Source of the DNA: Escherichia phage T7
Sequence record: MZ375281.1
Reading direction: 5' to 3' (one strand)
Length of the DNA: 37,125 nt
Below, piece after piece: positions 357-37,125 of the stretch. Under the pieces are notes generated by a model. It ran no database searches, had not been told where the DNA came from, and worked only from the letters and a program-made list of their open reading frames with translations. Each line of letters starts with the position of its first letter. Positions within the stretch are counted from its first letter, which is position 1. The translations under genes and the position numbers were made by a program.

Positions 357-379
357 TAATACAACTCACTATAGGGAGA
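357..379 (+). promoter_or_regulatory. T7 RNAP promoter phiOL
   Basis: TAATACAACTCACTATAGGGAGA, +1 G at 374. Confidence 0.8.
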
Positions 380-2463: not shown

Positions 2464-5115
2464 ATGAACACGATTAACATCGCTAAGAACGACTTCTCTG
2501 ACATCGAACTGGCTGCTATCCCGTTCAACACTCTGGCTGACCATTACGGTGAGCGTTTAGCTCGCGAACAGTTGGCCCTTGAGCATGAGTCTTACGAGAT
2601 GGGTGAAGCACGCTTCCGCAAGATGTTTGAGCGTCAACTTAAAGCTGGTGAGGTTGCGGATAACGCTGCCGCCAAGCCTCTCATCACTACCCTACTCCCT
2701 AAGATGATTGCACGCATCAACGACTGGTTTGAGGAAGTGAAAGCTAAGCGTGGCAAGCGCCCGACAGCCTTCCAGTTCCTGCAAGAAATCAAGCCGGAAG
2801 CCGTAGCGTACATCACCATTAAGACCACTCTGGCTTGCCTAACCAGTGCTGACAATACAACCGTTCAGGCTGCAGCAAGCGCAATCGGTCGGGCCATTGA
2901 GGACGAGGCTCGCTTCGGTCGTATCCGTGACCTTGAAGCTAAGCACTTCAAGAAAAACGTTGAGGAACAACTCAACAAGCGCGTAGGGCACGTCTACAAG
3001 AAAGCATTTATGCGAGTTGTCGAGGCTGACATGCTCTCTAAGGGTCTACTCGGTGGCGAGGCGTGGTCTTCGTGGCATAAGGAAGACTCTATTCATGTAG
3101 GAGTACGCTGCATCGAGATGCTCATTGAGTCAACCGGAATGGTTAGCTTACACCGCCAAAATGCTGGCGTAGTAGGTCAAGACTCTGAGACTATCGAACT
3201 CGCACCTGAATACGCTGAGGCTATCGCAACCCGTGCAGGTGCGCTGGCTGGCATCTCTCCGATGTTCCAACCTTGCGTAGTTCCTCCTAAGCCGTGGACT
3301 GGCATTACTGGTGGTGGCTATTGGGCTAACGGTCGTCGTCCTCTGGCGCTGGTGCGTACTCACAGTAAGAAAGCACTGATGCGCTACGAAGACGTTTACA
3401 TGCCTGAGGTGTACAAAGCGATTAACATTGCGCAAAACACCGCATGGAAAATCAACAAGAAAGTCCTAGCGGTCGCCAACGTAATCACCAAGTGGAAGCA
3501 TTGTCCGGTCGAGGACATCCCTGCGATTGAGCGTGAAGAACTCCCGATGAAACCGGAAGACATCGACATGAATCCTGAGGCTCTCACCGCGTGGAAACGT
3601 GCTGCCGCTGCTGTGTACCGCAAGGACAAGGCTCGCAAGTCTCGCCGTATCAGCCTTGAGTTCATGCTTGAGCAAGCCAATAAGTTTGCTAACCATAAGG
3701 CCATCTGGTTCCCTTACAACATGGACTGGCGCGGTCGTGTTTACGCTGTGTCAATGTTCAACCCGCAAGGTAACGATATGACCAAAGGACTGCTTACGCT
3801 GGCGAAAGGTAAACCAATCGGTAAGGAAGGTTACTACTGGCTGAAAATCCACGGTGCAAACTGTGCGGGTGTCGATAAGGTTCCGTTCCCTGAGCGCATC
3901 AAGTTCATTGAGGAAAACCACGAGAACATCATGGCTTGCGCTAAGTCTCCACTGGAGAACACTTGGTGGGCTGAGCAAGATTCTCCGTTCTGCTTCCTTG
4001 CGTTCTGCTTTGAGTACGCTGGGGTACAGCACCACGGCCTGAGCTATAACTGCTCCCTTCCGCTGGCGTTTGACGGGTCTTGCTCTGGCATCCAGCACTT
4101 CTCCGCGATGCTCCGAGATGAGGTAGGTGGTCGCGCGGTTAACTTGCTTCCTAGTGAAACCGTTCAGGACATCTACGGGATTGTTGCTAAGAAAGTCAAC
4201 GAGATTCTACAAGCAGACGCAATCAATGGGACCGATAACGAAGTAGTTACCGTGACCGATGAGAACACTGGTGAAATCTCTGAGAAAGTCAAGCTGGGCA
4301 CTAAGGCACTGGCTGGTCAATGGCTGGCTTACGGTGTTACTCGCAGTGTGACTAAGCGTTCAGTCATGACGCTGGCTTACGGGTCCAAAGAGTTCGGCTT
4401 CCGTCAACAAGTGCTGGAAGATACCATTCAGCCAGCTATTGATTCCGGCAAGGGTCTGATGTTCACTCAGCCGAATCAGGCTGCTGGATACATGGCTAAG
4501 CTGATTTGGGAATCTGTGAGCGTGACGGTGGTAGCTGCGGTTGAAGCAATGAACTGGCTTAAGTCTGCTGCTAAGCTGCTGGCTGCTGAGGTCAAAGATA
4601 AGAAGACTGGAGAGATTCTTCGCAAGCGTTGCGCTGTGCATTGGGTAACTCCTGATGGTTTCCCTGTGTGGCAGGAATACAAGAAGCCTATTCAGACGCG
4701 CTTGAACCTGATGTTCCTCGGTCAGTTCCGCTTACAGCCTACCATTAACACCAACAAAGATAGCGAGATTGATGCACACAAACAGGAGTCTGGTATCGCT
4801 CCTAACTTTGTACACAGCCAAGACGGTAGCCACCTTCGTAAGACTGTAGTGTGGGCACACGAGAAGTACGGAATCGAATCTTTTGCACTGATTCACGACT
4901 CCTTCGGTACCATTCCGGCTGACGCTGCGAACCTGTTCAAAGCAGTGCGCGAAACTATGGTTGACACATATGAGTCTTGTGATGTACTGGCTGATTTCTA
5001 CGACCAGTTCGCTGACCAGTTGCACGAGTCTCAATTGGACAAAATGCCAGCACTTCCGGCTAAAGGTAACTTGAACCTCCGTGACATCTTAGAGTCGGAC
5101 TTCGCGTTCGCGTAA
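2464..5115 (+). CDS. 1: T7 RNA polymerase (gp1)
   Basis: 883-aa ORF starting MNTINIAKNDFSDIELAAIPFNTLADHYG, ending DFAFA. Confidence 0.99.
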   Translation: MNTINIAKNDFSDIELAAIPFNTLADHYGERLAREQLALEHESYEMGEARFRKMFERQLKAGEVADNAAAKPLITTLLPKMIARINDWFEEVKAKRGKRPTAFQFLQEIKPEAVAYITIKTTLACLTSADNTTVQAAASAIGRAIEDEARFGRIRDLEAKHFKKNVEEQLNKRVGHVYKKAFMRVVEADMLSKGLLGGEAWSSWHKEDSIHVGVRCIEMLIESTGMVSLHRQNAGVVGQDSETIELAPEYAEAIATRAGALAGISPMFQPCVVPPKPWTGITGGGYWANGRRPLALVRTHSKKALMRYEDVYMPEVYKAINIAQNTAWKINKKVLAVANVITKWKHCPVEDIPAIEREELPMKPEDIDMNPEALTAWKRAAAAVYRKDKARKSRRISLEFMLEQANKFANHKAIWFPYNMDWRGRVYAVSMFNPQGNDMTKGLLTLAKGKPIGKEGYYWLKIHGANCAGVDKVPFPERIKFIEENHENIMACAKSPLENTWWAEQDSPFCFLAFCFEYAGVQHHGLSYNCSLPLAFDGSCSGIQHFSAMLRDEVGGRAVNLLPSETVQDIYGIVAKKVNEILQADAINGTDNEVVTVTDENTGEISEKVKLGTKALAGQWLAYGVTRSVTKRSVMTLAYGSKEFGFRQQVLEDTIQPAIDSGKGLMFTQPNQAAGYMAKLIWESVSVTVVAAVEAMNWLKSAAKLLAAEVKDKKTGEILRKRCAVHWVTPDGFPVWQEYKKPIQTRLNLMFLGQFRLQPTINTNKDSEIDAHKQESGIAPNFVHSQDGSHLRKTVVWAHEKYGIESFALIHDSFGTIPADAANLFKAVRETMVDTYESCDVLADFYDQFADQLHESQLDKMPALPAKGNLNLRDILESDFAFA

Positions 5116-5767: not shown

Positions 5768-6847
5768 ATGATGAACATTAAGACTAACCCGTTTAAAGCC
5801 GTGTCTTTCGTAGAGTCTGCCATTAAGAAGGCTCTGGATACCGCTGGATATCTTATCGCTGAAATCAAGTACGATGGTGTACGCGGGAACATCTGCGTAG
5901 ACAATACTGCTAACAGTTACTGGCTCTCTCGTGTATCTAAAACGATTCCGGCACTGGAGCACTTAAACGGGTTTGATGTTCGCTGGAAGCGTCTACTGAA
6001 CGATGACCGTTGCTTCTACAAAGATGGCTTTATGCTTGATGGGGAACTCATGGTCAAGGGCGTAGACTTTAACACAGGGTCCGGCCTACTGCGTACCAAA
6101 TGGACTGACACGAAGAACCAAGAGTTCCATGAAGAGTTATTCGTTGAACCAATCCGTAAGAAAGATAAAGTTCCCTTTAAGCTGCACACTGGACACCTTC
6201 ACATAAAACTGTACGCTATCCTCCCGCTGCACATCGTGGAGTCTGGAGAAGACTGTGATGTCATGACGTTGCTCATGCAGGAACACGTTAAGAACATGCT
6301 GCCTCTGCTACAGGAATACTTCCCTGAAATCGAATGGCAAGCGGCTGAATCTTACGAGGTCTACGATATGGTAGAACTACAGCAACTGTACGAGCAGAAG
6401 CGAGCAGAAGGCCATGAGGGTCTCATTGTGAAAGACCCGATGTGTATCTATAAGCGCGGTAAGAAATCTGGCTGGTGGAAAATGAAACCTGAGAACGAAG
6501 CTGACGGTATCATTCAGGGTCTGGTATGGGGTACAAAAGGTCTGGCTAATGAAGGTAAAGTGATTGGTTTTGAGGTGCTTCTTGAGAGTGGTCGTTTAGT
6601 TAACGCCACGAATATCTCTCGCGCCTTAATGGATGAGTTCACTGAGACAGTAAAAGAGGCCACCCTAAGTCAATGGGGATTCTTTAGCCCATACGGTATT
6701 GGCGACAACGATGCTTGTACTATTAACCCTTACGATGGCTGGGCGTGTCAAATTAGCTACATGGAGGAAACACCTGATGGCTCTTTGCGGCACCCATCGT
6801 TCGTAATGTTCCGTGGCACCGAGGACAACCCTCAAGAGAAAATGTAA
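5768..6847 (+). CDS. 1.3: ATP-dependent DNA ligase (gp1.3)
   Basis: 359-aa ORF; KYDGVRG adenylation motif. Confidence 0.97.
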   Translation: MMNIKTNPFKAVSFVESAIKKALDTAGYLIAEIKYDGVRGNICVDNTANSYWLSRVSKTIPALEHLNGFDVRWKRLLNDDRCFYKDGFMLDGELMVKGVDFNTGSGLLRTKWTDTKNQEFHEELFVEPIRKKDKVPFKLHTGHLHIKLYAILPLHIVESGEDCDVMTLLMQEHVKNMLPLLQEYFPEIEWQAAESYEVYDMVELQQLYEQKRAEGHEGLIVKDPMCIYKRGKKSGWWKMKPENEADGIIQGLVWGTKGLANEGKVIGFEVLLESGRLVNATNISRALMDEFTETVKEATLSQWGFFSPYGIGDNDACTINPYDGWACQISYMEETPDGSLRHPSFVMFRGTEDNPQEKM

Positions 6848-7357: not shown

Positions 7358-7690
<333 letters not shown>

Positions 7691-7693
<3 letters not shown>

Positions 7694-7713
7694 TACGACT
7701 CACTATTAGGGAA
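7691..7713 (+). promoter_or_regulatory. T7 promoter phi2.5 (initiates with A)
   Basis: TAATACGACTCACTATTAGGGAA, +1 A at 7708. Confidence 0.9.
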
Positions 7714-7758
7714 GACTCCCTCTGAGAAACCAAACGAAACCTAAAGGAGATTAACATT

Positions 7759-8337
7759 ATGGCTAAGAAGATTTTCACCTCTGCGCTGGGTACCGCTGAA
7801 CCTTACGCTTACATCACCAAGCCGGACTACGGCAACGAAGAGCGTGGCTTTGGGAACCCTCGTGGTGTCTATAAAGTTGACCTGACTATTCCCAACAAAG
7901 ACCCGCGCTGCCAGCGTATGGTCGATGAAATCGTGAAGTGTCACGAAGAGGCTTATGCTGCTGCCGTTGAGGAATACGAAGCTAATCCACCTGCTGTAGC
8001 TCGTGGTAAGAAACCGCTGAAACCGTATGAGGGTGACATGCCGTTCTTCGATAACGGTGACGGTACGACTACCTTTAAGTTCAAATGCTACGCGTCTTTC
8101 CAAGACAAGAAGACCAAAGAGACCAAGCACATCAATCTGGTTGTGGTTGACTCAAAAGGTAAGAAGATGGAAGACGTTCCGATTATCGGTGGTGGCTCTA
8201 AGCTGAAAGTTAAATATTCTCTGGTTCCATACAAGTGGAACACTGCTGTAGGTGCGAGCGTTAAGCTGCAACTGGAATCCGTGATGCTGGTCGAACTGGC
8301 TACCTTTGGTGGCGGTGAAGACGATTGGGCTGACTAA
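7759..8337 (+). CDS. 2.5: ssDNA-binding protein gp2.5, truncated at codon 193 by in-frame TAA; 39 further in-frame codons (8338-8454) still encode the acidic tail ending DEDGDF
   Basis: 192-aa ORF MAKKIFTSALGTAEPYAYI...; TAA at 8335-8337; downstream frame VEENGYVAS...EEADEDGDF*. Confidence 0.9.
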   Translation: MAKKIFTSALGTAEPYAYITKPDYGNEERGFGNPRGVYKVDLTIPNKDPRCQRMVDEIVKCHEEAYAAAVEEYEANPPAVARGKKPLKPYEGDMPFFDNGDGTTTFKFKCYASFQDKKTKETKHINLVVVDSKGKKMEDVPIIGGGSKLKVKYSLVPYKWNTAVGASVKLQLESVMLVELATFGGGEDDWAD

Positions 8338-8457
8338 GTTGAAGAGAACGGCTATGTTGCCTCTGGTCCTGCCAAAGCGAGCAAACCACGCGACGAAGAA
8401 AGCTGGGACGAAGACGACGAAGAGTCCGAGGAAGCAGACGAAGACGGAGACTTCTAA

Positions 8458-8877
8458 GTGGAACTGCGGGAGAAAATCCTTGAGCGAATCAAGGTGACTT
8501 CCTCTGGGTGTTGGGAGTGGCAGGGCGCTACGAACAATAAAGGGTACGGGCAGGTGTGGTGCAGCAATACCGGAAAGGTTGTCTACTGTCATCGCGTAAT
8601 GTCTAATGCTCCGAAAGGTTCTACCGTCCTGCACTCCTGTGATAATCCATTATGTTGTAACCCTGAACACCGTTCCATAGGAACTCCAAAAGAGAACTCC
8701 ACTGACATGGTAAATAAGGGTCGCTCACACAAGGGGTATAAACTTTCAGACGAAGACGTAATGGCAATCATGGAGTCCAGCGAGTCCAATGTATCCTTAG
8801 CTCGCACCTATGGTGTCTCCCAACAGACTATTTGTGATATACGCAAAGGGAGGCGACATGGCAGGTTACGGCGCTAA
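8458..8877 (+). CDS. 2.8: gp2.8, HNH-motif protein (GTG start)
   Basis: 139-aa ORF; HSCDNPLCCNPEH motif. Confidence 0.8.
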   Translation: MELREKILERIKVTSSGCWEWQGATNNKGYGQVWCSNTGKVVYCHRVMSNAPKGSTVLHSCDNPLCCNPEHRSIGTPKENSTDMVNKGRSHKGYKLSDEDVMAIMESSESNVSLARTYGVSQQTICDIRKGRRHGRLRR

Positions 8878-9762: not shown

Positions 9763-11632
<1,870 letters not shown>

Positions 11633-12463: not shown

Positions 12464-14578
12464 ATGATCGTTTCTGACATCGAAGATAACGCCCTCTTAG
12501 AGAGCGTCACTAAGTTCCACTGCGGGGTTATCTACGACTACTCCACCGCTGAGTACGTAAGCTACCGTCCGAGTGACTTCGGTGCGTATCTGGATGCGCT
12601 GGAAGCCGAGGTTGCACGAGGCGGTCTTATTGTGTTCCACAACGGTCACAAGTATGACGTTCCTGCATTGACCAAACTGGCAAAGTTGCAATTGAACCGA
12701 GAGTTCCACCTTCCTCGTGAGAACTGTATTGACACCCTTGTGTTGTCACGTTTGATTCATTCCAACCTCAAGGACACCGATATGGGTCTTCTGCGTTCCG
12801 GCAAGTTGCCCGGAAAACGCTTTGGGTCTCACGCTTTGGAGGCGTGGGGTTATCGCTTAGGCGAGATGAAGGGTGAATACAAAGACGACTTTAAGCGTAT
12901 GCTTGAAGAGCAGGGTGAAGAATACGTTGACGGAATGGAGTGGTGGAACTTCAACGAAGAGATGATGGACTATAACGTTCAGGACGTTGTGGTAACTAAA
13001 GCTCTCCTTGAGAAGCTACTCTCTGACAAACATTACTTCCCTCCTGAGATTGACTTTACGGACGTAGGATACACTACGTTCTGGTCAGAATCCCTTGAGG
13101 CCGTTGACATTGAACATCGTGCTGCATGGCTGCTCGCTAAACAAGAGCGCAACGGGTTCCCGTTTGACACAAAAGCAATCGAAGAGTTGTACGTAGAGTT
13201 AGCTGCTCGCCGCTCTGAGTTGCTCCGTAAATTGACCGAAACGTTCGGCTCGTGGTATCAGCCTAAAGGTGGCACTGAGATGTTCTGCCATCCGCGAACA
13301 GGTAAGCCACTACCTAAATACCCTCGCATTAAGACACCTAAAGTTGGTGGTATCTTTAAGAAGCCTAAGAACAAGGCACAGCGAGAAGGCCGTGAGCCTT
13401 GCGAACTTGATACCCGCGAGTACGTTGCTGGTGCTCCTTACACCCCAGTTGAACATGTTGTGTTTAACCCTTCGTCTCGTGACCACATTCAGAAGAAACT
13501 CCAAGAGGCTGGGTGGGTCCCGACCAAGTACACCGATAAGGGTGCTCCTGTGGTGGACGATGAGGTACTCGAAGGAGTACGTGTAGATGACCCTGAGAAG
13601 CAAGCCGCTATCGACCTCATTAAAGAGTACTTGATGATTCAGAAGCGAATCGGACAGTCTGCTGAGGGAGACACAGCATGGCTTCGTTATGTTGCTGAGG
13701 ATGGTAAGATTCATGGTTCTGTTAACCCTAATGGAGCAGTTACGGGTCGTGCGACCCATGCGTTCCCAAACCTTGCGCAAATTCCGGGTGTACGTTCTCC
13801 TTATGGAGAGCAGTGTCGCGCTGCTTTTGGCGCTGAGCACCATTTGGATGGGATAACTGGTAAGCCTTGGGTTCAGGCTGGCATCGACGCATCCGGTCTT
13901 GAGCTACGCTGCTTGGCTCACTTCATGGCTCGCTTTGATAACGGCGAGTACGCTCACGAGATTCTTAACGGCGACATCCACACTAAGAACCAGATAGCTG
14001 CTGAACTACCTACCCGAGATAACGCTAAGACGTTCATCTATGGGTTCCTCTATGGTGCTGGTGATGAGAAGATTGGACAGATTGTTGGTGCTGGTAAAGA
14101 GCGCGGTAAGGAACTCAAGAAGAAATTCCTTGAGAACACCCCCGCGATTGCAGCACTCCGCGAGTCTATCCAACAGACACTTGTCGAGTCCTCTCAATGG
14201 GTAGCTGGTGAGCAACAAGTCAAGTGGAAACGCCGCTGGATTAAAGGTCTGGATGGTCGTAAGGTACACGTTCGTAGTCCTCACGCTGCCTTGAATACCC
14301 TACTGCAATCTGCTGGTGCTCTCATCTGCAAACTGTGGATTATCAAGACCGAAGAGATGCTCGTAGAGAAAGGCTTGAAGCATGGCTGGGATGGGGACTT
14401 TGCGTACATGGCATGGGTACATGATGAAATCCAAGTAGGCTGCCGTACCGAAGAGATTGCTCAGGTGGTCATTGAGACCGCACAAGAAGCGATGCGCTGG
14501 GTTGGAGACCACTGGAACTTCCGGTGTCTTCTGGATACCGAAGGTAAGATGGGTCCTAATTGGGCGATTTGCCACTGA
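12464..14578 (+). CDS. 5: T7 DNA polymerase (gp5)
   Basis: 704-aa [30 protein letters not shown]... Confidence 0.99.
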
Positions 14579-16300: not shown

Positions 16301-16323
16301 TAATACGACTCACTATAGGGAGA
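16301..16323 (+). promoter_or_regulatory. T7 class III promoter phi6.5
   Basis: TAATACGACTCACTATAGGGAGA, +1 at 16318. Confidence 0.95.
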
Positions 16324-16377: not shown

Positions 16378-16632
16378 ATGTTAACACCTATTAACCAATT
16401 ACTTAAGAACCCTAACGATATTCCAGATGTACCTCGTGCAACCGCTGAGTATCTACAGGTTCGATTCAACTATGCGTACCTCGAAGCGTCTGGTCATATA
16501 GGACTTATGCGTGCTAATGGTTGTAGTGAGGCCCACATCTTGGGTTTCATTCAGGGCCTACAGTATGCCTCTAACGTCATTGACGAGATTGAGTTACGCA
16601 AGGAACAACTAAGAGATGATGGGGAGGATTGA
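16378..16632 (+). CDS. 6.5: gp6.5
   Basis: 84-aa ORF. Confidence 0.9.
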
Positions 16633-16636
16633 CACT

Positions 16637-16903
16637 ATGTGTTTCTCACCGAAAATTAAAACTCCGAAGATGGATACCAATCAGATTCGAGCCGTTGAGC
16701 CAGCGCCTCTGACCCAAGAAGTGTCAAGCGTGGAGTTCGGTGGGTCTTCTGATGAGACGGATACCGAGGGCACCGAAGTGTCTGGACGCAAAGGCCTCAA
16801 GGTCGAACGTGATGATTCCGTAGCGAAGTCTAAAGCCAGCGGCAATGGCTCCGCTCGTATGAAATCTTCCATCCGTAAGTCCGCATTTGGAGGTAAGAAG
16901 TGA
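16637..16903 (+). CDS. 6.7: gp6.7, virion protein (88 aa)
   Basis: ATG 16637 after ggggagg; MCFSPKIKTPKMDTNQIR... Confidence 0.88.
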   Translation: MCFSPKIKTPKMDTNQIRAVEPAPLTQEVSSVEFGGSSDETDTEGTEVSGRKGLKVERDDSVAKSKASGNGSARMKSSIRKSAFGGKK

Positions 16904-17643: not shown

Positions 17644-19254
17644 ATGGCTGAGAAACGAACAGGACTTGCGGAGGATGGCGCAAAGTCTGTCTATGAGCGT
17701 TTAAAGAACGACCGTGCTCCCTATGAGACACGCGCTCAGAATTGCGCTCAATATACCATCCCATCATTGTTCCCTAAGGACTCCGATAACGCCTCTACAG
17801 ATTATCAAACTCCGTGGCAAGCCGTGGGCGCTCGTGGTCTGAACAATCTAGCCTCTAAGCTCATGCTGGCTCTATTCCCTATGCAGACTTGGATGCGACT
17901 TACTATATCTGAATATGAAGCAAAGCAGTTACTGAGCGACCCCGATGGACTCGCTAAGGTCGATGAGGGCCTCTCGATGGTAGAGCGTATCATCATGAAC
18001 TACATTGAGTCTAACAGTTACCGCGTGACTCTCTTTGAGGCTCTCAAACAGTTAGTCGTAGCTGGTAACGTCCTGCTGTACCTACCGGAACCGGAAGGGT
18101 CAAACTATAATCCCATGAAGCTGTACCGATTGTCTTCTTATGTGGTCCAACGAGACGCATTCGGCAACGTTCTGCAAATGGTGACTCGTGACCAGATAGC
18201 TTTTGGTGCTCTCCCTGAGGACATCCGTAAGGCTGTAGAAGGTCAAGGTGGTGAGAAGAAAGCTGATGAGACAATCGACGTGTACACTCACATCTATCTG
18301 GATGAGGACTCAGGTGAATACCTCCGATACGAAGAGGTCGAGGGTATGGAAGTCCAAGGCTCCGATGGGACTTATCCTAAAGAGGCTTGCCCATACATCC
18401 CGATTCGGATGGTCAGACTAGATGGTGAATCCTACGGTCGTTCGTACATTGAGGAATACTTAGGTGACTTACGGTCCCTTGAAAATCTCCAAGAGGCTAT
18501 CGTCAAGATGTCCATGATTAGCTCTAAGGTTATCGGCTTAGTGAATCCTGCTGGTATCACCCAGCCACGCCGACTGACCAAAGCTCAGACTGGTGACTTC
18601 GTTACTGGTCGTCCAGAAGACATCTCGTTCCTCCAACTGGAGAAGCAAGCAGACTTTACTGTAGCTAAAGCCGTAAGTGACGCTATCGAGGCTCGCCTTT
18701 CGTTTGCCTTTATGTTGAACTCTGCGGTTCAGCGTACAGGTGAACGTGTGACCGCCGAAGAGATTCGGTATGTAGCTTCTGAACTTGAAGATACTTTAGG
18801 TGGTGTCTACTCTATCCTTTCTCAAGAATTACAATTGCCTCTGGTACGAGTGCTCTTGAAGCAACTACAAGCCACGCAACAGATTCCTGAGTTACCTAAG
18901 GAAGCCGTAGAGCCAACCATTAGTACAGGTCTGGAAGCAATTGGTCGAGGACAAGACCTTGATAAGCTGGAGCGGTGTGTCACTGCGTGGGCTGCACTGG
19001 CACCTATGCGGGACGACCCTGATATTAACCTTGCGATGATTAAGTTACGTATTGCCAACGCTATCGGTATTGACACTTCTGGTATTCTACTCACCGAAGA
19101 ACAGAAGCAACAGAAGATGGCCCAACAGTCTATGCAAATGGGTATGGATAATGGTGCTGCTGCGCTGGCTCAAGGTATGGCTGCACAAGCTACAGCTTCA
19201 CCTGAGGCTATGGCTGCTGCCGCTGATTCCGTAGGTTTACAGCCGGGAATTTAA
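17644..19254 (+). CDS. 8: Portal (head-tail connector) protein gp8
   Basis: 536 aa from ATG 17644 (MAEKRTGLAEDGAKSVYERL...). Confidence 0.97.
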   Translation: MAEKRTGLAEDGAKSVYERLKNDRAPYETRAQNCAQYTIPSLFPKDSDNASTDYQTPWQAVGARGLNNLASKLMLALFPMQTWMRLTISEYEAKQLLSDPDGLAKVDEGLSMVERIIMNYIESNSYRVTLFEALKQLVVAGNVLLYLPEPEGSNYNPMKLYRLSSYVVQRDAFGNVLQMVTRDQIAFGALPEDIRKAVEGQGGEKKADETIDVYTHIYLDEDSGEYLRYEEVEGMEVQGSDGTYPKEACPYIPIRMVRLDGESYGRSYIEEYLGDLRSLENLQEAIVKMSMISSKVIGLVNPAGITQPRRLTKAQTGDFVTGRPEDISFLQLEKQADFTVAKAVSDAIEARLSFAFMLNSAVQRTGERVTAEEIRYVASELEDTLGGVYSILSQELQLPLVRVLLKQLQATQQIPELPKEAVEPTISTGLEAIGRGQDLDKLERCVTAWAALAPMRDDPDINLAMIKLRIANAIGIDTSGILLTEEQKQQKMAQQSMQMGMDNGAAALAQGMAAQATASPEAMAAAADSVGLQPGI

Positions 19255-19274
19255 TACGACTCACTATAGGGAGA
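19252..19274 (+). promoter_or_regulatory. T7 class III promoter phi9
   Basis: TAATACGACTCACTATAGGGAGA, +1 at 19269; TAA is the gene 8 stop. Confidence 0.95.
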
Positions 19275-19353: not shown

Positions 19354-20277
19354 ATGGCTGAATCTAATGCAGACGTATATGCATCTTTTGGCGTGAACTC
19401 CGCTGTGATGTCTGGTGGTTCCGTTGAGGAACATGAGCAGAACATGCTGGCTCTTGATGTTGCTGCCCGTGATGGCGATGATGCAATCGAGTTAGCGTCA
19501 GACGAAGTGGAAACAGAACGTGACCTGTATGACAACTCTGACCCGTTCGGTCAAGAGGATGACGAAGGCCGCATTCAGGTTCGTATCGGTGATGGCTCTG
19601 AGCCGACCGATGTGGACACTGGAGAAGAAGGCGTTGAGGGCACCGAAGGTTCCGAAGAGTTTACCCCACTGGGCGAGACTCCAGAAGAACTGGTAGCTGC
19701 CTCTGAGCAACTTGGTGAGCACGAAGAGGGCTTCCAAGAGATGATTAACATTGCTGCTGAGCGTGGCATGAGTGTCGAGACCATTGAGGCTATCCAGCGT
19801 GAGTACGAGGAGAACGAAGAGTTGTCCGCCGAGTCCTACGCTAAGCTGGCTGAAATTGGCTACACGAAGGCTTTCATTGACTCGTATATCCGTGGTCAAG
19901 AAGCTCTGGTGGAGCAGTACGTAAACAGTGTCATTGAGTACGCTGGTGGTCGTGAACGTTTTGATGCACTGTATAACCGCCTTGAGACGCACAACCCTGA
20001 GGCTGCACAGTCGCTGGATAATGCGTTGACCAATCGTGACTTAGCGACCGTTAAGGCTATCATCAACTTGGCTGGTGAGTCTCGCGCTAAGGCGTTCGGT
20101 CGTAAGCCAACTCGTAGTGTGACTAATCGTGCTATTCCGGCTAAACCTCAGGCTACCAAGCGTGAAGGCTTTGCGGACCGTAGCGAGATGATTAAAGCTA
20201 TGAGTGACCCTCGGTATCGCACAGATGCCAACTATCGTCGTCAAGTCGAACAGAAAGTAATCGATTCGAACTTCTGA
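19354..20277 (+). CDS. 9: Capsid assembly (scaffolding) protein gp9
   Basis: 307-aa acidic ORF. Confidence 0.97.
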   Translation: MAESNADVYASFGVNSAVMSGGSVEEHEQNMLALDVAARDGDDAIELASDEVETERDLYDNSDPFGQEDDEGRIQVRIGDGSEPTDVDTGEEGVEGTEGSEEFTPLGETPEELVAASEQLGEHEEGFQEMINIAAERGMSVETIEAIQREYEENEELSAESYAKLAEIGYTKAFIDSYIRGQEALVEQYVNSVIEYAGGRERFDALYNRLETHNPEAAQSLDNALTNRDLATVKAIINLAGESRAKAFGRKPTRSVTNRAIPAKPQATKREGFADRSEMIKAMSDPRYRTDANYRRQVEQKVIDSNF

Positions 20278-20290
20278 TAGACTTCGAAAT

Positions 20291-20313
20291 TAATACAACT
20301 CACTATATGGAGA
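20291..20313 (+). promoter_or_regulatory. T7 promoter phi10 (capsid), variant with A at -11 and T at +1
   Basis: TAATACAACTCACTATATGGAGA followed by ccacaacggtttccctctagaaataattttgtttaactttaagaaggagatatacaCATG. Confidence 0.85.
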
Positions 20314-20370
20314 CCACAACGGTTTCCCTCTAGAAATAATTTTGTTTAACTTTAAGAAGGAGATATACAC

Positions 20371-21408
20371 ATGGCTAGCATGACTGGTGGACAGCAAATG
20401 GGTACTAACCAAGGTAAAGGTGTAGTTGCTGCTGGAGATAAACTGGCGTTGTTCTTGAAGGTATTTGGCGGTGAAGTCCTGACTGCGTTCGCTCGTACCT
20501 CCGTGACCACTTCTCGCCACATGGTACGTTCCATCTCCAGCGGTAAATCCGCTCAGTTCCCTGTTCTGGGTCGCACTCAGGCAGCGTATCTGGCTCCGGG
20601 CGAGAACCTCGACGATAAACGTAAGGACATCAAACACACCGAGAAGGTAATCACCATTGACGGTCTCCTGACGGCTGACGTTCTGATTTATGATATTGAG
20701 GACGCGATGAACCACTACGACGTTCGCTCTGAGTATACCTCTCAGTTGGGTGAATCTCTGGCGATGGCTGCGGATGGTGCGGTTCTGGCTGAGATTGCCG
20801 GTCTGTGTAACGTGGAAAGCAAATATAATGAGAACATCGAGGGCTTAGGTACTGCTACCGTAATTGAGACCACTCAGAACAAGGCCGCACTTACCGACCA
20901 AGTTGCGCTGGGTAAGGAGATTATTGCGGCTCTGACTAAGGCTCGTGCGGCTCTGACCAAGAACTATGTTCCGGCTGCTGACCGTGTGTTCTACTGTGAC
21001 CCAGATAGCTACTCTGCGATTCTGGCAGCACTGATGCCGAACGCAGCAAACTACGCTGCTCTGATTGACCCTGAGAAGGGTTCTATCCGCAACGTTATGG
21101 GCTTTGAGGTTGTAGAAGTTCCGCACCTCACCGCTGGTGGTGCTGGTACCGCTCGTGAGGGCACTACTGGTCAGAAGCACGTCTTCCCTGCCAATAAAGG
21201 TGAGGGTAATGTCAAGGTTGCTAAGGACAACGTTATCGGCCTGTTCATGCACCGCTCTGCGGTAGGTACTGTTAAGCTGCGTGACTTGGCTCTGGAGCGC
21301 GCTCGCCGTGCTAACTTCCAAGCGGACCAGATTATCGCTAAGTACGCAATGGGCCACGGTGGTCTTCGCCCAGAAGCTGCTGGTGCAGTGGTTTTCAAAG
21401 TGGAGTAA
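20371..21408 (+). CDS. 10A: Major capsid protein gp10A
   Basis: 345-aa ORF MASMTGGQQMGTNQGKG... ending AVVFKVE. Confidence 0.99.
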   Translation: MASMTGGQQMGTNQGKGVVAAGDKLALFLKVFGGEVLTAFARTSVTTSRHMVRSISSGKSAQFPVLGRTQAAYLAPGENLDDKRKDIKHTEKVITIDGLLTADVLIYDIEDAMNHYDVRSEYTSQLGESLAMAADGAVLAEIAGLCNVESKYNENIEGLGTATVIETTQNKAALTDQVALGKEIIAALTKARAALTKNYVPAADRVFYCDPDSYSAILAALMPNAANYAALIDPEKGSIRNVMGFEVVEVPHLTAGGAGTAREGTTGQKHVFPANKGEGNVKVAKDNVIGLFMHRSAVGTVKLRDLALERARRANFQADQIIAKYAMGHGGLRPEAAGAVVFKVE

Positions 21409-27998: not shown

Positions 27999-30900
27999 AT
28001 GGATAAGTACGATAAGAACGTACCAAGTGATTATGATGGTCTGTTCCAAAAGGCTGCTGATGCCAACGGGGTCTCTTATGACCTTTTACGTAAAGTCGCT
28101 TGGACAGAATCACGATTTGTGCCTACAGCAAAATCTAAGACTGGACCATTAGGCATGATGCAATTTACCAAGGCAACCGCTAAGGCCCTCGGTCTGCGAG
28201 TTACCGATGGTCCAGACGACGACCGACTGAACCCTGAGTTAGCTATTAATGCTGCCGCTAAGCAACTTGCAGGTCTGGTAGGGAAGTTTGATGGCGATGA
28301 ACTCAAAGCTGCCCTTGCGTACAACCAAGGCGAGGGACGCTTGGGTAATCCACAACTTGAGGCGTACTCTAAGGGAGACTTCGCATCAATCTCTGAGGAG
28401 GGACGTAACTACATACGTAACCTTCTGGATGTTGCTAAGTCACCTATGGCTGGACAGTTGGAAACTTTTGGTGGCATAACCCCAAAGGGTAAAGGCATTC
28501 CGGCTGAGGTAGGATTGGCTGGAATTGGTCACAAGCAGAAAGTAACACAGGAACTTCCTGAGTCCACAAGTTTTGACGTTAAGGGTATCGAACAGGAGGC
28601 TACGGCGAAACCATTCGCCAAGGACTTTTGGGAGACCCACGGAGAAACACTTGACGAGTACAACAGTCGTTCAACCTTCTTCGGATTCAAAAATGCTGCC
28701 GAAGCTGAACTCTCCAACTCAGTCGCTGGGATGGCTTTCCGTGCTGGTCGTCTCGATAATGGTTTTGATGTGTTTAAAGACACCATTACGCCGACTCGCT
28801 GGAACTCTCACATCTGGACTCCAGAGGAGTTAGAGAAGATTCGAACAGAGGTTAAGAACCCTGCGTACATCAACGTTGTAACTGGTGGTTCCCCTGAGAA
28901 CCTCGATGACCTCATTAAATTGGCTAACGAGAACTTTGAGAATGACTCCCGCGCTGCCGAGGCTGGCCTAGGTGCCAAACTGAGTGCTGGTATTATTGGT
29001 GCTGGTGTGGACCCGCTTAGCTATGTTCCTATGGTCGGTGTCACTGGTAAGGGCTTTAAGTTAATCAATAAGGCTCTTGTAGTTGGTGCCGAAAGTGCTG
29101 CTCTGAACGTTGCATCCGAAGGTCTCCGTACCTCCGTAGCTGGTGGTGACGCAGACTATGCGGGTGCTGCCTTAGGTGGCTTTGTGTTTGGCGCAGGCAT
29201 GTCTGCAATCAGTGACGCTGTAGCTGCTGGACTGAAACGCAGTAAACCAGAAGCTGAGTTCGACAATGAGTTCATCGGTCCTATGATGCGATTGGAAGCC
29301 CGTGAGACAGCACGAAACGCCAACTCTGCGGACCTCTCTCGGATGAACACTGAGAACATGAAGTTTGAAGGTGAACATAATGGTGTCCCTTATGAGGACT
29401 TACCAACAGAGAGAGGTGCCGTGGTGTTACATGATGGCTCCGTTCTAAGTGCAAGCAACCCAATCAACCCTAAGACTCTAAAAGAGTTCTCCGAGGTTGA
29501 CCCTGAGAAGGCTGCGCGAGGAATCAAACTGGCTGGGTTCACCGAGATTGGCTTGAAGACCTTGGGGTCTGACGATGCTGACATCCGTAGAGTGGCTATC
29601 GACCTCGTTCGCTCTCCTACTGGTATGCAGTCTGGTGCCTCAGGTAAGTTCGGTGCAACAGCTTCTGACATCCATGAGAGACTTCATGGTACTGACCAGC
29701 GTACTTATAATGACTTGTACAAAGCAATGTCTGACGCTATGAAAGACCCTGAGTTCTCTACTGGCGGCGCTAAGATGTCCCGTGAAGAAACTCGATACAC
29801 TATCTACCGTAGAGCGGCACTAGCTATTGAGCGTCCAGAACTACAGAAGGCACTCACTCCGTCTGAGAGAATCGTTATGGACATCATTAAGCGTCACTTT
29901 GACACCAAGCGTGAACTTATGGAAAACCCAGCAATATTCGGTAACACAAAGGCTGTGAGTATCTTCCCTGAGAGTCGCCACAAAGGTACTTACGTTCCTC
30001 ACGTATATGACCGTCATGCCAAGGCGCTGATGATTCAACGCTACGGTGCCGAAGGTTTGCAGGAAGGGATTGCCCGCTCATGGATGAACAGCTACGTCTC
30101 CAGACCTGAGGTCAAGGCCAGAGTCGATGAGATGCTTAAGGAATTACACGGGGTGAAGGAAGTAACACCAGAGATGGTAGAGAAGTACGCTATGGATAAG
30201 GCTTATGGTATCTCCCACTCAGACCAGTTCACCAACAGTTCCATAATAGAAGAGAACATTGAGGGCTTAGTAGGTATCGAGAATAACTCATTCCTTGAGG
30301 CACGTAACTTGTTTGATTCGGACCTATCCATCACTATGCCAGACGGACAGCAATTCTCAGTGAATGACCTAAGGGACTTCGATATGTTCCGCATCATGCC
30401 AGCGTATGACCGCTGTGTCAATAGTGACATCGCCATCATGGGGTCTACTGGTAAAACCACTAAGGAACTTAAGGATGAGATTTTGGCTCTCAAAGCGAAA
30501 GCTGAGGGAGACGGTAAGAAGACTGGCGAGGTACATGCTTTAATGGATACCGTTAAGATTCTTACTGGTCGTGCTAGACGCAATCAGGACACTGTGTGGG
30601 AAACCTCACTGCGTGCCATCAATGACCTAGGGTTCTTCGCTAAGAACGCCTACATGGGTGCTCAGAACATTACGGAGATTGCTGGGATGATTGTCACTGG
30701 TAACGTTCGTGCTCTAGGGCATGGTATCCCAATTCTGCGTGATACACTCTACAAGTCTAAACCAGTTTCAGCTAAGGAACTCAAGGAACTCCATGCGTCT
30801 CTGTTCGGGAAGGAGGTGGACCAGTTGATTCGGCCTAGACGTGCTGACATTGTGCAGCGCCTAAGGGAAGCAACTGATACCGGACCTGCCGTGGCGAACA

Positions 30901-31955
30901 TCGTAGGGACCTTGAAGTATTCAACACAGGAACTGGCTGCTCGCTCTCCGTGGACTAAGCTACTGAACGGAACCACTAACTACCTTCTGGATGCTGCGCG
31001 TCAAGGTATGCTTGGGGATGTTATTAGTGCCACCCTAACAGGTAAGACTACCCGCTGGGAGAAAGAAGGCTTCCTTCGTGGTGCCTCCGTAACTCCTGAG
31101 CAGATGGCTGGCATCAAGTCTCTCATCAAGGAACATATGGTACGCGGTGAGGACGGGAAGTTTACCGTTAAGGACAAGCAAGCGTTCTCTATGGACCCAC
31201 GGGCTATGGACTTATGGAGACTGGCTGACAAGGTAGCTGATGAGGCAATGCTGCGTCCACATAAGGTGTCCTTACAGGATTCCCATGCGTTCGGAGCACT
31301 AGGTAAGATGGTTATGCAGTTTAAGTCTTTCACTATCAAGTCCCTTAACTCTAAGTTCCTGCGAACCTTCTATGATGGATACAAGAACAACCGAGCGATT
31401 GACGCTGCGCTGAGCATCATCACCTCTATGGGTCTCGCTGGTGGTTTCTATGCTATGGCTGCACACGTCAGAGCATACGCTCTGCCTAAGGAGAAACGTA
31501 AGGAGTACTTGGAGCGTGCACTGGACCCAACCATGATTGCCCACGCTGCGTTATCTCGTAGTTCTCAATTGGGTGTTCCTTTGGCTATGGTTGACCTAGT
31601 TGGTGGTGTTTTAGGGTTCGAGTCCTCCAAGATGGCTCGCTCTACGATTCTACCTAAGGACACCGTGAAGGAACGTGACCCAAACAAACCGTACACCTCT
31701 AGAGAGGTAATGGGCGCTATGGGTTCAAACCTTCTGGAACAGATGCCTTCGGCTGGCTTTGTGGCTAACGTAGGGGCTACCTTAATGAATGCTGCTGGCG
31801 TGGTCAACTCACCTAATAAAGCAACCGAGCAGGACTTCATGACTGGTCTTATGAACTCCACAAAAGAGTTAGTACCGAACGACCCATTGACTCAACAGCT
31901 TGTGTTGAAGATTTATGAGGCGAACGGTGTTAACTTGAGGGAGCGTAGGAAATAA
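27999..31955 (+). CDS. 16: Internal core protein gp16 with N-terminal lytic transglycosylase domain
   Basis: 1318-aa ORF; SLT-like N-terminus (TESRF...GLMQF). Confidence 0.97.
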   Translation: MDKYDKNVPSDYDGLFQKAADANGVSYDLLRKVAWTESRFVPTAKSKTGPLGMMQFTKATAKALGLRVTDGPDDDRLNPELAINAAAKQLAGLVGKFDGDELKAALAYNQGEGRLGNPQLEAYSKGDFASISEEGRNYIRNLLDVAKSPMAGQLETFGGITPKGKGIPAEVGLAGIGHKQKVTQELPESTSFDVKGIEQEATAKPFAKDFWETHGETLDEYNSRSTFFGFKNAAEAELSNSVAGMAFRAGRLDNGFDVFKDTITPTRWNSHIWTPEELEKIRTEVKNPAYINVVTGGSPENLDDLIKLANENFENDSRAAEAGLGAKLSAGIIGAGVDPLSYVPMVGVTGKGFKLINKALVVGAESAALNVASEGLRTSVAGGDADYAGAALGGFVFGAGMSAISDAVAAGLKRSKPEAEFDNEFIGPMMRLEARETARNANSADLSRMNTENMKFEGEHNGVPYEDLPTERGAVVLHDGSVLSASNPINPKTLKEFSEVDPEKAARGIKLAGFTEIGLKTLGSDDADIRRVAIDLVRSPTGMQSGASGKFGATASDIHERLHGTDQRTYNDLYKAMSDAMKDPEFSTGGAKMSREETRYTIYRRAALAIERPELQKALTPSERIVMDIIKRHFDTKRELMENPAIFGNTKAVSIFPESRHKGTYVPHVYDRHAKALMIQRYGAEGLQEGIARSWMNSYVSRPEVKARVDEMLKELHGVKEVTPEMVEKYAMDKAYGISHSDQFTNSSIIEENIEGLVGIENNSFLEARNLFDSDLSITMPDGQQFSVNDLRDFDMFRIMPAYDRCVNSDIAIMGSTGKTTKELKDEILALKAKAEGDGKKTGEVHALMDTVKILTGRARRNQDTVWETSLRAINDLGFFAKNAYMGAQNITEIAGMIVTGNVRALGHGIPILRDTLYKSKPVSAKELKELHASLFGKEVDQLIRPRRADIVQRLREATDTGPAVANIVGTLKYSTQELAARSPWTKLLNGTTNYLLDAARQGMLGDVISATLTGKTTRWEKEGFLRGASVTPEQMAGIKSLIKEHMVRGEDGKFTVKDKQAFSMDPRAMDLWRLADKVADEAMLRPHKVSLQDSHAFGALGKMVMQFKSFTIKSLNSKFLRTFYDGYKNNRAIDAALSIITSMGLAGGFYAMAAHVRAYALPKEKRKEYLERALDPTMIAHAALSRSSQLGVPLAMVDLVGGVLGFESSKMARSTILPKDTVKERDPNKPYTSREVMGAMGSNLLEQMPSAGFVANVGATLMNAAGVVNSPNKATEQDFMTGLMNSTKELVPNDPLTQQLVLKIYEANGVNLRERRK

Positions 31956-36983: not shown

Positions 36984-37125
36984 TCTCACAGTGTACGGAC
37001 CTAAAGTTCCCCCCATAGGGTGTACCTAAAGCCCAGCCAATCACCTAAAGTCAACCTTCGGTTGACCTTGAGGGTTCCCTAAGGGTTTGTCTTTGGGTGT
37101 ACCTTGAGTGTCTCTCTGTGTCCCT
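36984..37125. repeat. Right direct terminal repeat
   Basis: Identical to bases 1-142. Confidence 0.95.

What the first reader, a model, noticed from the sequence alone, without database searches (positions are those of the whole stretch)
20291..20373. Capsid promoter phi10 deviates from the invariant class III sequence at -11 and +1, with a further change at -2 of the gene 10 ATG
Five other class III promoters in this window (phi6.5, phi9, phi13, phi17, phiOR) are the identical 23-mer TAATACGACTCACTATAGGGAGA. The promoter before the major capsid gene reads TAATACAACTCACTATATGGAGA: A instead of G at -11 (a specificity-loop contact) and T instead of G at +1 (the initiating nucleotide). Either change alone is expected to reduce T7 RNAP initiation strongly. 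The leader otherwise matches the familiar gene 10 leader, except the ATG context is ACACATG where I recall ATACATATG. Gene 10 would then rely mainly on read-through from phi9 and upstream promoters, suggesting deliberate or selected attenuation of capsid expression, or a promoter-specificity change.
Basis: partly seen in the sequence, partly recalled or inferred. Interest (0 to 1): 0.75.

Follow-up and report, generated by a model that had tools for sequence, protein, structure and literature searches.

The report
Lab-evolved weakened T7 capsid promoter
The capsid-gene promoter of this phage T7 genome carries three spontaneous point changes that arose during long laboratory passage of a genome-reduced T7, part of a recurrent retuning of its promoters, and probably weaken the promoter without silencing the capsid gene.

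Summary
phi10 reads TAATACAACTCACTATATGGAGA (-11 G>A, +1 G>T), and the base just before the gene 10 ATG is C instead of T (position -1, not -2). Five other class III promoters are exact consensus.

The window is a complete 37,125-bp genome-reduced T7 from the CiPGr evolution series (Yuan et al. 2022), probably clone T7_250L. The changes are spontaneous and arose stepwise: +1T appears at transfer 120 and is in 33 of 37 later database clones, ATG-1 C appears from transfer 170, and -11A is private to this clone.

They belong to a wider pattern. Sibling clones carry phi9 -6 A>G or phi10 +2 G>T, every clone from transfer 120 on has at least one phi9/phi10/leader change, and phiOL moved toward consensus. 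RNA polymerase has V137A and Q184R but no specificity-loop change.

Published in-vitro data disagree on severity: +1T gives 8% in one assay and near wild type in another, and -11A gives about 0.3x or no effect. A full phi10 knockout is viable with little fitness cost because phi9 reads through.

Best reading: a weakened phi10, probably favoured by selection. Hitch-hiking is a serious rival. Cas9 escape and a specificity switch are unlikely. Interest is moderate to low.

The parts
20291..20313 (+). T7 class III promoter phi10 (-17 to +6), variant TAATACAACTCACTATATGGAGA; the -9 to -7 CTC core is intact
   Evidence: position of phi10 (+1 = T7 22904) from the V01146 annotation
20297..20297 (+). 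-11 G>A (T7 22893); private to this clone among database records
20308..20308 (+). +1 G>T (T7 22904); first seen at transfer 120, present in 34 sibling records
20308..20370 (+). Gene 10 leader (63 nt): 5' hairpin, epsilon/SD region (AAGGAG at 20357-20362); otherwise identical to reference T7
20370..20370 (+). T>C at -1 of the gene 10 ATG (T7 22966; CATATG > CACATG); also in 170L, 220S, 230S, 5t2 and 5t3
20371..21408 (+). Gene 10A, major capsid protein (345 aa), no coding change in this clone
19252..19274 (+). phi9, exact class III consensus about 1 kb upstream with no annotated terminator in between; the expected main source of gene 10 mRNA if phi10 is weak
   Evidence: Paff 2018
16301..16323 (+). 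phi6.5, exact consensus; further upstream source of read-through transcripts
357..379 (+). phiOL with +1 A>G at 374 (T7 405), a move toward consensus; keeps its native -11 A
2464..5115 (+). Gene 1, T7 RNA polymerase: V137A (2873), Q184R (3014), synonymous R96R (2751); specificity loop 739-770 unchanged

Best explanation
This is the native phi10 promoter and gene 10 leader of a laboratory-evolved, genome-reduced T7. The genome belongs to the CiPGr serial-passage series and is most likely clone T7_250L, GenBank MZ375281. The promoter and leader have picked up three spontaneous substitutions one after another.

Inferred mechanism:
- +1 G>T removes the preferred initiating G, so T7 RNA polymerase must start at the +2 G, less efficiently.
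- -11 G>A mildly loosens the N748/specificity-loop contact.
- The -9 to -7 core is intact, so phi10 is weakened rather than dead.
- Capsid mRNA then comes largely from consensus phi9 and phi6.5 by read-through to Tphi.
- The T>C before the ATG has a small, unknown effect on translation.

The changes are not engineered and are not a specificity switch. They are part of a recurrent retuning of T7 promoters in this experiment: phi9 and phi10 move away from consensus, phiOL moves toward it, and the RNA polymerase N-terminal domain changes. The most likely cause is selection for lower or rebalanced late (scaffold/capsid) expression under the passaging regime.
For: Shown:
- Identity and origin of the genome (paper).
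- The transfer-10 clone is wild type, +1T is absent in all 22 clones of transfers 10-110, and it is present in 33 of 37 database clones of transfers 120-300.
- The four exceptions carry phi9 -6 A>G and/or ATG-1 C, so 38 of 38 late clones carry at least one such change.
- The separately run cassette-100 line has a different phi10 hit, +2 G>T (libraries were screened separately).
- Five distinct substitutions lie in the phi9/phi10 promoters and leader. In the 16-genome matrix, 4 of 130 distinct substitutions fall in these 192 non-coding bp (P about 0.004) and 6 of 130 fall in the 391 bp of promoters (P about 0.002).
- Alleles are reshuffled among clones, so linkage is weak.
- Winners of a plain-host, low-MOI competition (5t1-5t3) carry phi9 -6G and/or ATG-1 C.
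- phiOL +1 A>G and RNAP Q184R swept earlier, at transfers 30-40.

From the literature:
- +1T gives 8%, -6G about 28% and +1A about 40% of wild type (Komura).
- -11A costs about 0.29x in a matched pair.
- Delta-phi10 T7 is viable with a non-significant fitness loss, and phi9 contributes about as much gene 10A RNA as phi10 (Paff).
Against: - No transcript or protein data exist for this clone, so the size and even the direction of the net effect in vivo are inferred.
- Kartje 2020 found -11 G>A neutral and +1 C/T efficient through a +2 start, so phi10 may be nearly normal.
- Clones from one evolving population are not independent samples.
- The enrichment tests are post hoc.
- Titres sometimes fell below 1e5 PFU/ml, which implies bottlenecks, and selection on growth rate is weak at MOI about 1 with 2-12 h incubations, so near-neutral alleles could rise by draft.
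- +1T is absent from the three plain-host competition winners.
- The selective agent is unknown.
Confidence: 0.55

Rival explanations
1. Near-neutral or mildly deleterious passengers. The substitutions rose by drift or by hitch-hiking with Cas9-escaping deletions during bottlenecked passage. They were tolerated because phi9 read-through makes phi10 dispensable and because co-infection at MOI about 1 shares capsid protein among genomes.
For: - The phi10 knockout costs little.
- Passage was at MOI about 1, with rescue on plain hosts when titres fell below 1e5 PFU/ml.
- The authors report about 60 point mutations accumulating linearly with transfers.
- The observed promoter changes are the mildest kinds: purine-purine at -11 and -6, and +1/+2 with another G next door.
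- +1T is absent from the plain-host competition winners.
Against: - Five distinct hits lie in about 190 bp upstream of genes 9 and 10, across two separately run libraries.
- At least two independent alleles (phi9 -6G, phi10 +1T) went from 0 of 22 to 38 of 38 clones within about 20 transfers.
- The mosaic genotypes show that recombination could have purged a costly allele, while wild-type phi10 persisted in the population.
- There is a directional contrast with phiOL, which moved toward consensus.
Confidence: 0.3
2. CRISPR-Cas9 escape. The changes destroy the PAM or seed of a protospacer covering the promoter (-21 to -2 plus AGG at -1 to +2), or the leader protospacer ending at the ATG (TGG PAM), that some library spacer hits.
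For: - The phage was passaged on Cas9 spacer libraries, and the authors place 23.5% of T7 point mutations in spacer/PAM regions.
- +1T and the sibling +2T both destroy the same AGG.
- -11 and phi9 -6 fall in the seed of that protospacer, and ATG-1 is seed position 2 of a TGG-PAM protospacer (read directly from the sequence).
- Both libraries used the same spacers.
Against: - Known essential genes were excluded from spacer design, and spacers were chosen within genes; this stretch is intergenic between essential genes 9 and 10.
- The protospacer at phi9 differs from the one at phi10 only at one PAM-distal base, and those at phi6.5, phi13, phi17 and phiOR share -17 to +6. All stay intact in the same genomes, so an escape at phi10 alone would not protect the phage.
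- phi4.7 is intact in the window.
Confidence: 0.05
3. Promoter-specificity co-evolution. The RNA polymerase changed its recognition and phi10 is adapting to it.
For: - Gene 1 carries V137A and Q184R.
- Siblings carry R96C or P100Q in the AT-rich recognition loop.
- -11 is a specificity position.
Against: - There is no change in the specificity loop, residues 739-770.
- Five class III promoters remain exact consensus, and phiOL moved toward consensus, not away.
- +1 is not a recognition contact.
Confidence: 0.04
4. Artefact or engineering: an assembly or sequencing error, or a designed change (for example removal of the NdeI site CATATG).
For: - -11A is seen only in this one assembly.
- T>C does destroy an NdeI site (read directly from the sequence).
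Against: - +1T is in 34 assemblies and ATG-1 C in 5 other independent assemblies.
- The alleles appear at different transfers from a wild-type start.
- The paper describes no such engineering and calls the point mutations unexpected.
Confidence: 0.03

Closest known systems
Wild-type T7 class III promoter phi10 with the gene 10 leader (the pET-type promoter and translation initiation region)
   Same: Same locus and same 63-nt leader. 21 of 23 promoter bases are identical, including the -9 to -7 CTC core and the TATA melting region. Same SD and spacing.
   Different: A at -11, T at +1 and C at ATG-1. The preferred initiating G is lost, so the start is presumably at +2 and the 5' hairpin is one base pair shorter.
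Natural weak T7 promoters phiOL and phi3.8
   Same: Both natively carry A at -11, and phiOL also natively lacks G at +1 (it has A). The evolved phi10 therefore resembles a phiOL-type weak promoter.
   Different: phiOL in this same genome has moved the opposite way (+1 A>G). No natural T7 promoter has T at +1.
Engineered phi9/phi10 knockout T7 strains (Paff et al. 2018, mSystems)
   Same: The capsid gene loses its own promoter drive and depends on upstream read-through. The phage stays viable. Evolution in those lines also touched gene 1, including K95T in the AT-rich loop.
   Different: Those strains replaced 18-23 bp with arbitrary sequence by design, and the change was deleterious in that background. 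Here there are spontaneous single-base changes that leave a partly functional promoter and that rose in frequency.
T7 promoter evolution after RNA polymerase replacement (T7 carrying T3 RNAP; Bull, Springman and Molineux 2007), recalled from memory and not checked here
   Same: Experimental evolution changing T7 promoters at the -11/-10 specificity positions.
   Different: There the changes followed a swapped polymerase and went toward T3-type bases. Here the polymerase specificity loop is unchanged and -11 goes G>A, not to C.

Membership tests
T7 class III promoter (phi10) | Located immediately upstream of gene 10 with the 63-nt leader, collinear with reference T7 | tested here: met
   Alignment with V01146 and its promoter annotation
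T7 class III promoter (phi10) | Exact 23-bp class III consensus TAATACGACTCACTATAGGGAGA | tested here: not met
   21 of 23 bases; mismatches at -11 and +1. The other five class III promoters are exact.
T7 class III promoter (phi10) | Essential recognition core -9 to -7 (CTC) and C at -5 retained | tested here: met
   Sequence; importance of these bases from Komura 2018 and Kartje 2020
T7 class III promoter (phi10) | Initiation with G at +1 | tested here: not met
   +1 is T; G is available at +2 and +3. A start shift to +2 is proposed in the literature but was not measured for this clone.
T7 class III promoter (phi10) | Directs transcription by T7 RNA polymerase in infected cells | not testable with these tools
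   Needs 5'-end mapping or run-off transcription
CRISPR-Cas9 escape mutation | Lies in the PAM or seed of a protospacer matched by a spacer actually present in the host library | tested here: inconclusive
   The geometry fits an NGG PAM or seed. However, essential genes were excluded from design, the spacer list is not held, and near-identical protospacers at five other promoters stay intact.
Specificity-switched promoter/polymerase pair (T3-like) | Substitution in the RNAP specificity loop (for example N748) together with matching -11/-10 changes across promoters | tested here: not met
   Gene 1 differs only at V137A and Q184R; five consensus promoters are unchanged
Engineered promoter knockout | Designed replacement of the promoter, present from the start of the line | tested here: not met
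   The transfer-10 clone is wild type, and the alleles arise at transfers 120, 170 and about 250

The most novel reading that the evidence does not exclude
Long passage of T7 at MOI about 1 on Cas9/lambda-Red hosts selects a coordinated rewiring of the phage's own transcription programme. The scaffold/capsid promoters (phi9, phi10) are tuned down by several alternative single-base routes, phiOL is tuned up, and the polymerase N-terminal domain and AT-rich loop change. This would mean that wild-type capsid over-expression is costly, or unrewarded as a shared good, under these conditions.
Probability: 0.4. Interest if true: 0.5.

Novelty: new variant of a known kind. Interest (0 to 1): 0.3.

Why it matters
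phi10 is the most widely used promoter in biotechnology, and the six class III promoters are exact copies in reference T7. It is informative that this strongest copy is the one repeatedly altered when T7 is passaged for hundreds of transfers, through +1T, +2T and -11A, alongside phi9 -6G.

If these changes were selected, the maximal capsid promoter strength of wild-type T7 is not optimal under all growth regimes. Single-base routes at -11, -6, +1 and +2 would then be the accessible tuning knobs. That is useful for phage engineering, attenuation design and models of T7 gene expression.

It also matters practically. Genome-reduced 'chassis' phages from this series carry regulatory changes beyond their deletions, and the source paper does not discuss them. 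Phenotypes attributed to gene loss may therefore be confounded.

Tried and rejected
1. **Cas9 escape.** The PAM/seed geometry fits, but essential genes had no spacers, the stretch is intergenic, and near-identical protospacers at phi9, phi6.5, phi13, phi17 and phiOR stay intact in the same genomes. The spacer list is not available.
2. **New E. coli sigma-70 promoter.** The scan found none.
3. **Leader RNA restructuring affecting ribosome access.** Predicted SD-to-AUG unpaired probability is 0.39 for wild type and 0.40-0.41 for the mutants. The only change is one base pair lost from the 5' hairpin if the start is at +2.
4. **Gene conversion from phiOL as the source of -11A.** This is possible in principle, but no T7 promoter could donate +1T, +2T or -6G, and a single point mutation is the simpler explanation.
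5. **Specificity-loop change in gene 1.** There is none.
6. **Deliberate engineering.** Rejected by the time series.
7. **Direct activity values for the -11A single mutant, the -11A/+1T double and +2T in Komura's data.** They are not in the stored part of the supplement. Only one matched pair for -11A was found.
8. **Identity of the window's own record.** It is not in the phage collection. MZ375281 is the one gap in the accession series, so naming the clone T7_250L is an inference.

Full report
**1. What is in the sequence**

Window 20291-20313 reads TAATACAACTCACTATATGGAGA. A search for the class III consensus finds exact copies at 16301, 19252, 24661, 31953 and 36616. It finds the two-mismatch copy at 20291 and a one-mismatch copy at 357.

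Aligned with reference T7 (V01146), the 140 bp around the site differ at exactly three positions:
- T7 22893 G>A, which is -11 of phi10.
- T7 22904 G>T, which is +1.
- T7 22966 T>C, the base immediately before the gene 10 ATG.

Gene 10A follows at 20371-21408 and is unchanged.

**2. Where the window comes from**

The whole window is collinear with T7 apart from eight deletions and about 45 substitutions, and it includes both terminal repeats. The deletions are T7 1314-1980, 7608-7763, 8197-8725, 11254-11542, 13353-13547, 16483-16820, 19848-20216 and 39429-39608.

Its nearest relatives are the 'Mutant Escherichia phage T7 clone T7_nnnL/S' records MZ375233-294 and OL9647xx. These match the experiment and clone naming of Yuan et al., NAR 2022. 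In that study T7 was passaged up to 300 times on E. coli MG1655 carrying Cas9, lambda-Red and libraries of spacers against non-essential genes.

Accessions map regularly to clone names: 233 = 10L, 254 = 110S, 255 = 120L, 278 = 230S, 287 = 280L. The only gap is MZ375281, which is absent from the collection and would be T7_250L. The window's genotype sits among the 240-300 clones. The window is therefore most probably T7_250L, but this is an inference.

**3. The changes are spontaneous and stepwise**

- **Starting state.** The transfer-10 clone is wild type at all three sites.
- **+1T.** It occurs in 34 records. None of the 22 clones from transfers 10-110 has it, 33 of the 37 database clones from transfers 120-300 have it, and so does MZ375294.
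- **ATG-1 C.** It occurs in 170L, 220S, 230S, 5t2 and 5t3.
- **-11A.** It is in no database record at full coverage, so it is private to this clone.

This rules out engineering. For +1T and ATG-1 C it also rules out assembly error.

**4. The wider pattern**

I built a genotype matrix of 16 full genomes and ran allele-specific searches. These show that the phi10 changes are one instance of recurrent promoter evolution.

- **phi9 -6 A>G (T7 21859).** It is present in T7_100L.2, 140L, 150L, 170L, 5t1 and 5t2. The four late clones that lack phi10 +1T are 140L, 150L, 170L and 220S. Each carries phi9 -6G and/or ATG-1 C. So 38 of 38 clones from transfer 120 on carry at least one phi9/phi10/leader change, against 0 of 22 of the regular transfer 10-110 clones.
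- **phi10 +2 G>T (T7 22905).** It is in T7_1t2. This clone is from the cassette-100 library, which was run and screened separately. At 37,063 bp, a 7.2% reduction, it probably corresponds to the paper's T7_100_t2.
- **-11 G>A at other promoters.** It also arose at phi13 (220S) and phi4.7 (1t1).
- **phiOL.** It moved toward consensus. +1 A>G appears from transfer 30 and becomes nearly fixed, and -11 A>G is in several clones.
- **RNA polymerase.** Q184R swept at transfers 30-40 and V137A came later. Siblings carry R96C or P100Q in the AT-rich recognition loop.

Among 130 distinct substitutions, 6 fall in the 391 bp of T7 promoters (1.3 expected, P about 0.002). Four fall in the 192 non-coding bp upstream of genes 9 and 10 (0.6 expected, P about 0.004). 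These tests are post hoc, and the clones share ancestry. However, alleles are strongly reshuffled among clones, so linkage is weak.

**5. What the substitutions do**

No data exist for this clone, so everything here is inferred from published in-vitro work.

Komura et al. 2018 measured barcoded in-vitro transcription, with a wild-type RNA/DNA ratio of 169 +/- 19:
- +1 G>T gives 13.8, or 8% of wild type.
- -6 A>G gives 46-49, or about 28%.
- +1 G>A gives 68, or about 40%. This means the phiOL change is an up-mutation.
- For -11A there is only one matched pair. The -15G background gives 6.8 and 6.0, and -15G with -11A gives 1.8, a factor of about 0.29.

Multiplying the two factors would put the window's phi10 at roughly 2% of consensus in that assay.

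Kartje et al. 2020 give a different picture:
- -11 and -6 simply prefer a purine.
- -11 G>A had 'no effect', in agreement with Diaz 1993 and Patwardhan 2009.
- +1 C/T templates were efficient. The authors attribute this to a start shift to +2, as proposed by Imburgio 2000.

A at -11 is native to phiOL and phi3.8. So phi10 is probably weakened, by anything from slightly to about 50-fold, but not abolished, because the -9 to -7 core is intact.

I also checked side effects of the changes. No sigma-70 promoter is created. Predicted accessibility of the SD-AUG region is unchanged, 0.39 against 0.41. The 5' hairpin loses one G-C pair if transcription starts at +2.

**6. Consequence for gene 10**

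Paff et al. 2018 replaced phi9 and/or phi10 in T7:
- Delta-phi10 alone gave no significant fitness loss (P = 0.0749).
- Delta-phi9 and Delta-phi10 lowered 10A RNA about equally.
- Only the double knockout cut 10A RNA by 84-86%.

In the window, phi9 and phi6.5 are exact consensus. The reference annotation shows no terminator before Tphi.

**7. Why did the changes rise?**

The best-supported reading is selection for lower or rebalanced late expression under the passaging regime. I give it about 0.55. The supporting evidence is:
- Five distinct substitutions in one small regulatory region, across two library lines.
- At least two alleles rising within the same 20-transfer interval.
- Persistence of the alleles despite recombination with surviving wild-type alleles.
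- Carriage of phi9 -6G and/or ATG-1 C by the winners of a plain-host, low-MOI competition.

The selective agent is unknown. Untested candidates are listed in notebook entry 5:
- Resource allocation in dense host cultures.
- Capsid protein acting as a shared good at MOI about 1.
- Compensation for the earlier polymerase and phiOL changes.

The main rival, at about 0.3, is hitch-hiking or drift of tolerated changes. In its favour:
- Bottlenecks occurred.
- The observed changes are the mildest possible kinds.
- +1T is absent from the plain-host winners.

Cas9 escape is unlikely, at about 0.05. +1T and +2T both destroy an AGG PAM. But essential genes had no spacers, and near-identical protospacers at five other promoters remain intact in the same genomes.

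A specificity switch is also unlikely, at about 0.04. There is no specificity-loop change, and the other consensus promoters are untouched.

**8. Comparison with what is known, and novelty**

The element is phi10 itself, and the mutational tolerance of T7 promoters is well mapped. What is not described in the main text of the source paper is that this regulatory region, together with phi9, phiOL and gene 1, changed recurrently. In the main text the word 'promoter' refers only to the cassette promoter or appears in a cited title.

I class this as a new variant of a known kind. It is of moderate to low general interest (0.3). It would be more interesting (about 0.5) if allele-swap competitions show that down-tuning the capsid promoters is adaptive.

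Noticed in passing
window 8335 (T7 9734); ORF 7759-8337: Gene 2.5 (single-stranded DNA-binding protein) has a premature stop, E193*, with S204P downstream. This removes the last 40 residues, including the acidic C-terminal tail that mediates contacts with the polymerase and helicase. The same stop is in T7_300L. From memory, tail-less gp2.5 does not support T7 growth, so viable plaque-purified clones carrying it are surprising. gp5 A8D/K404T might be suppressors.
   Followed up: partly
window 357-379 (T7 388-410): phiOL reads TAATACAACTCACTATAGGGAGA. Its native +1 A has become G, toward consensus, which is about a 2.5-fold up-mutation by Komura's data. The change appears at transfer 30 and is nearly fixed afterwards. 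Several siblings also have phiOL -11 A>G.
   Followed up: yes
L013 19600-19680 (T7 21859); also MZ375259, MZ375261, MZ375293, OL964739, OL964740: phi9 -6 A>G (TAATACGACTCGCTATAGGGAGA) occurs in sibling clones. Among clones from transfer 120 on, it is found only in ones that lack phi10 +1T.
   Followed up: yes
L025 (OL964749, T7_1t2), T7 22905: A clone from the separately run cassette-100 library, probably the paper's 'optimal' T7_100_t2, has phi10 +2 G>T (TATAGTGAGA). This is an independent hit on the phi10 initiation site.
   Followed up: partly
L014 (220S) T7 27263; L024 (1t1) T7 13904: The same -11 G>A change arose independently at phi13 and phi4.7, so -11 behaves as a recurrent tuning position.
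   Followed up: partly
window 2751, 2873, 3014 (gene 1); siblings T7 3456, 3469, 3470: RNA polymerase has V137A and Q184R. Q184R swept at transfers 30-40 and is also in the cassette-100 clones. Codons 96 and 100 of the AT-rich recognition loop are hit four times across clones: R96C, R96R (this window), P100Q and P100P. Two of those are synonymous, which is odd.
   Followed up: partly
window 27999-31955 (gene 16): Six missense changes lie in the internal virion protein gp16: M139I, R806C, G809S, K947R, K1158R and A1193V. Two of them were already present by transfer 110 and occur in every later genome examined.
   Followed up: no
L024 (OL964748, T7_1t1) about 360-432 and 4281-4297: phi1.1A and phi1.1B are fused by a deletion of T7 5849-5906 between the two promoters. 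A short duplication or rearrangement surrounds phiOL.
   Followed up: no
window about 100 and about 205 (T7 99-116, 223-235); also 36879: Small deletions of 18, 13 and 9 bp lie in the repeat arrays near the genome ends. There are also matching changes in both terminal repeats (an inserted C at 26 and at 37009; G>T at 38 and at 37021).
   Followed up: no
L020 (160L) T7 22996: Gene 10 M10I (ATG>ATA) occurs in clone 160L, close to the start of the capsid gene.
   Followed up: no
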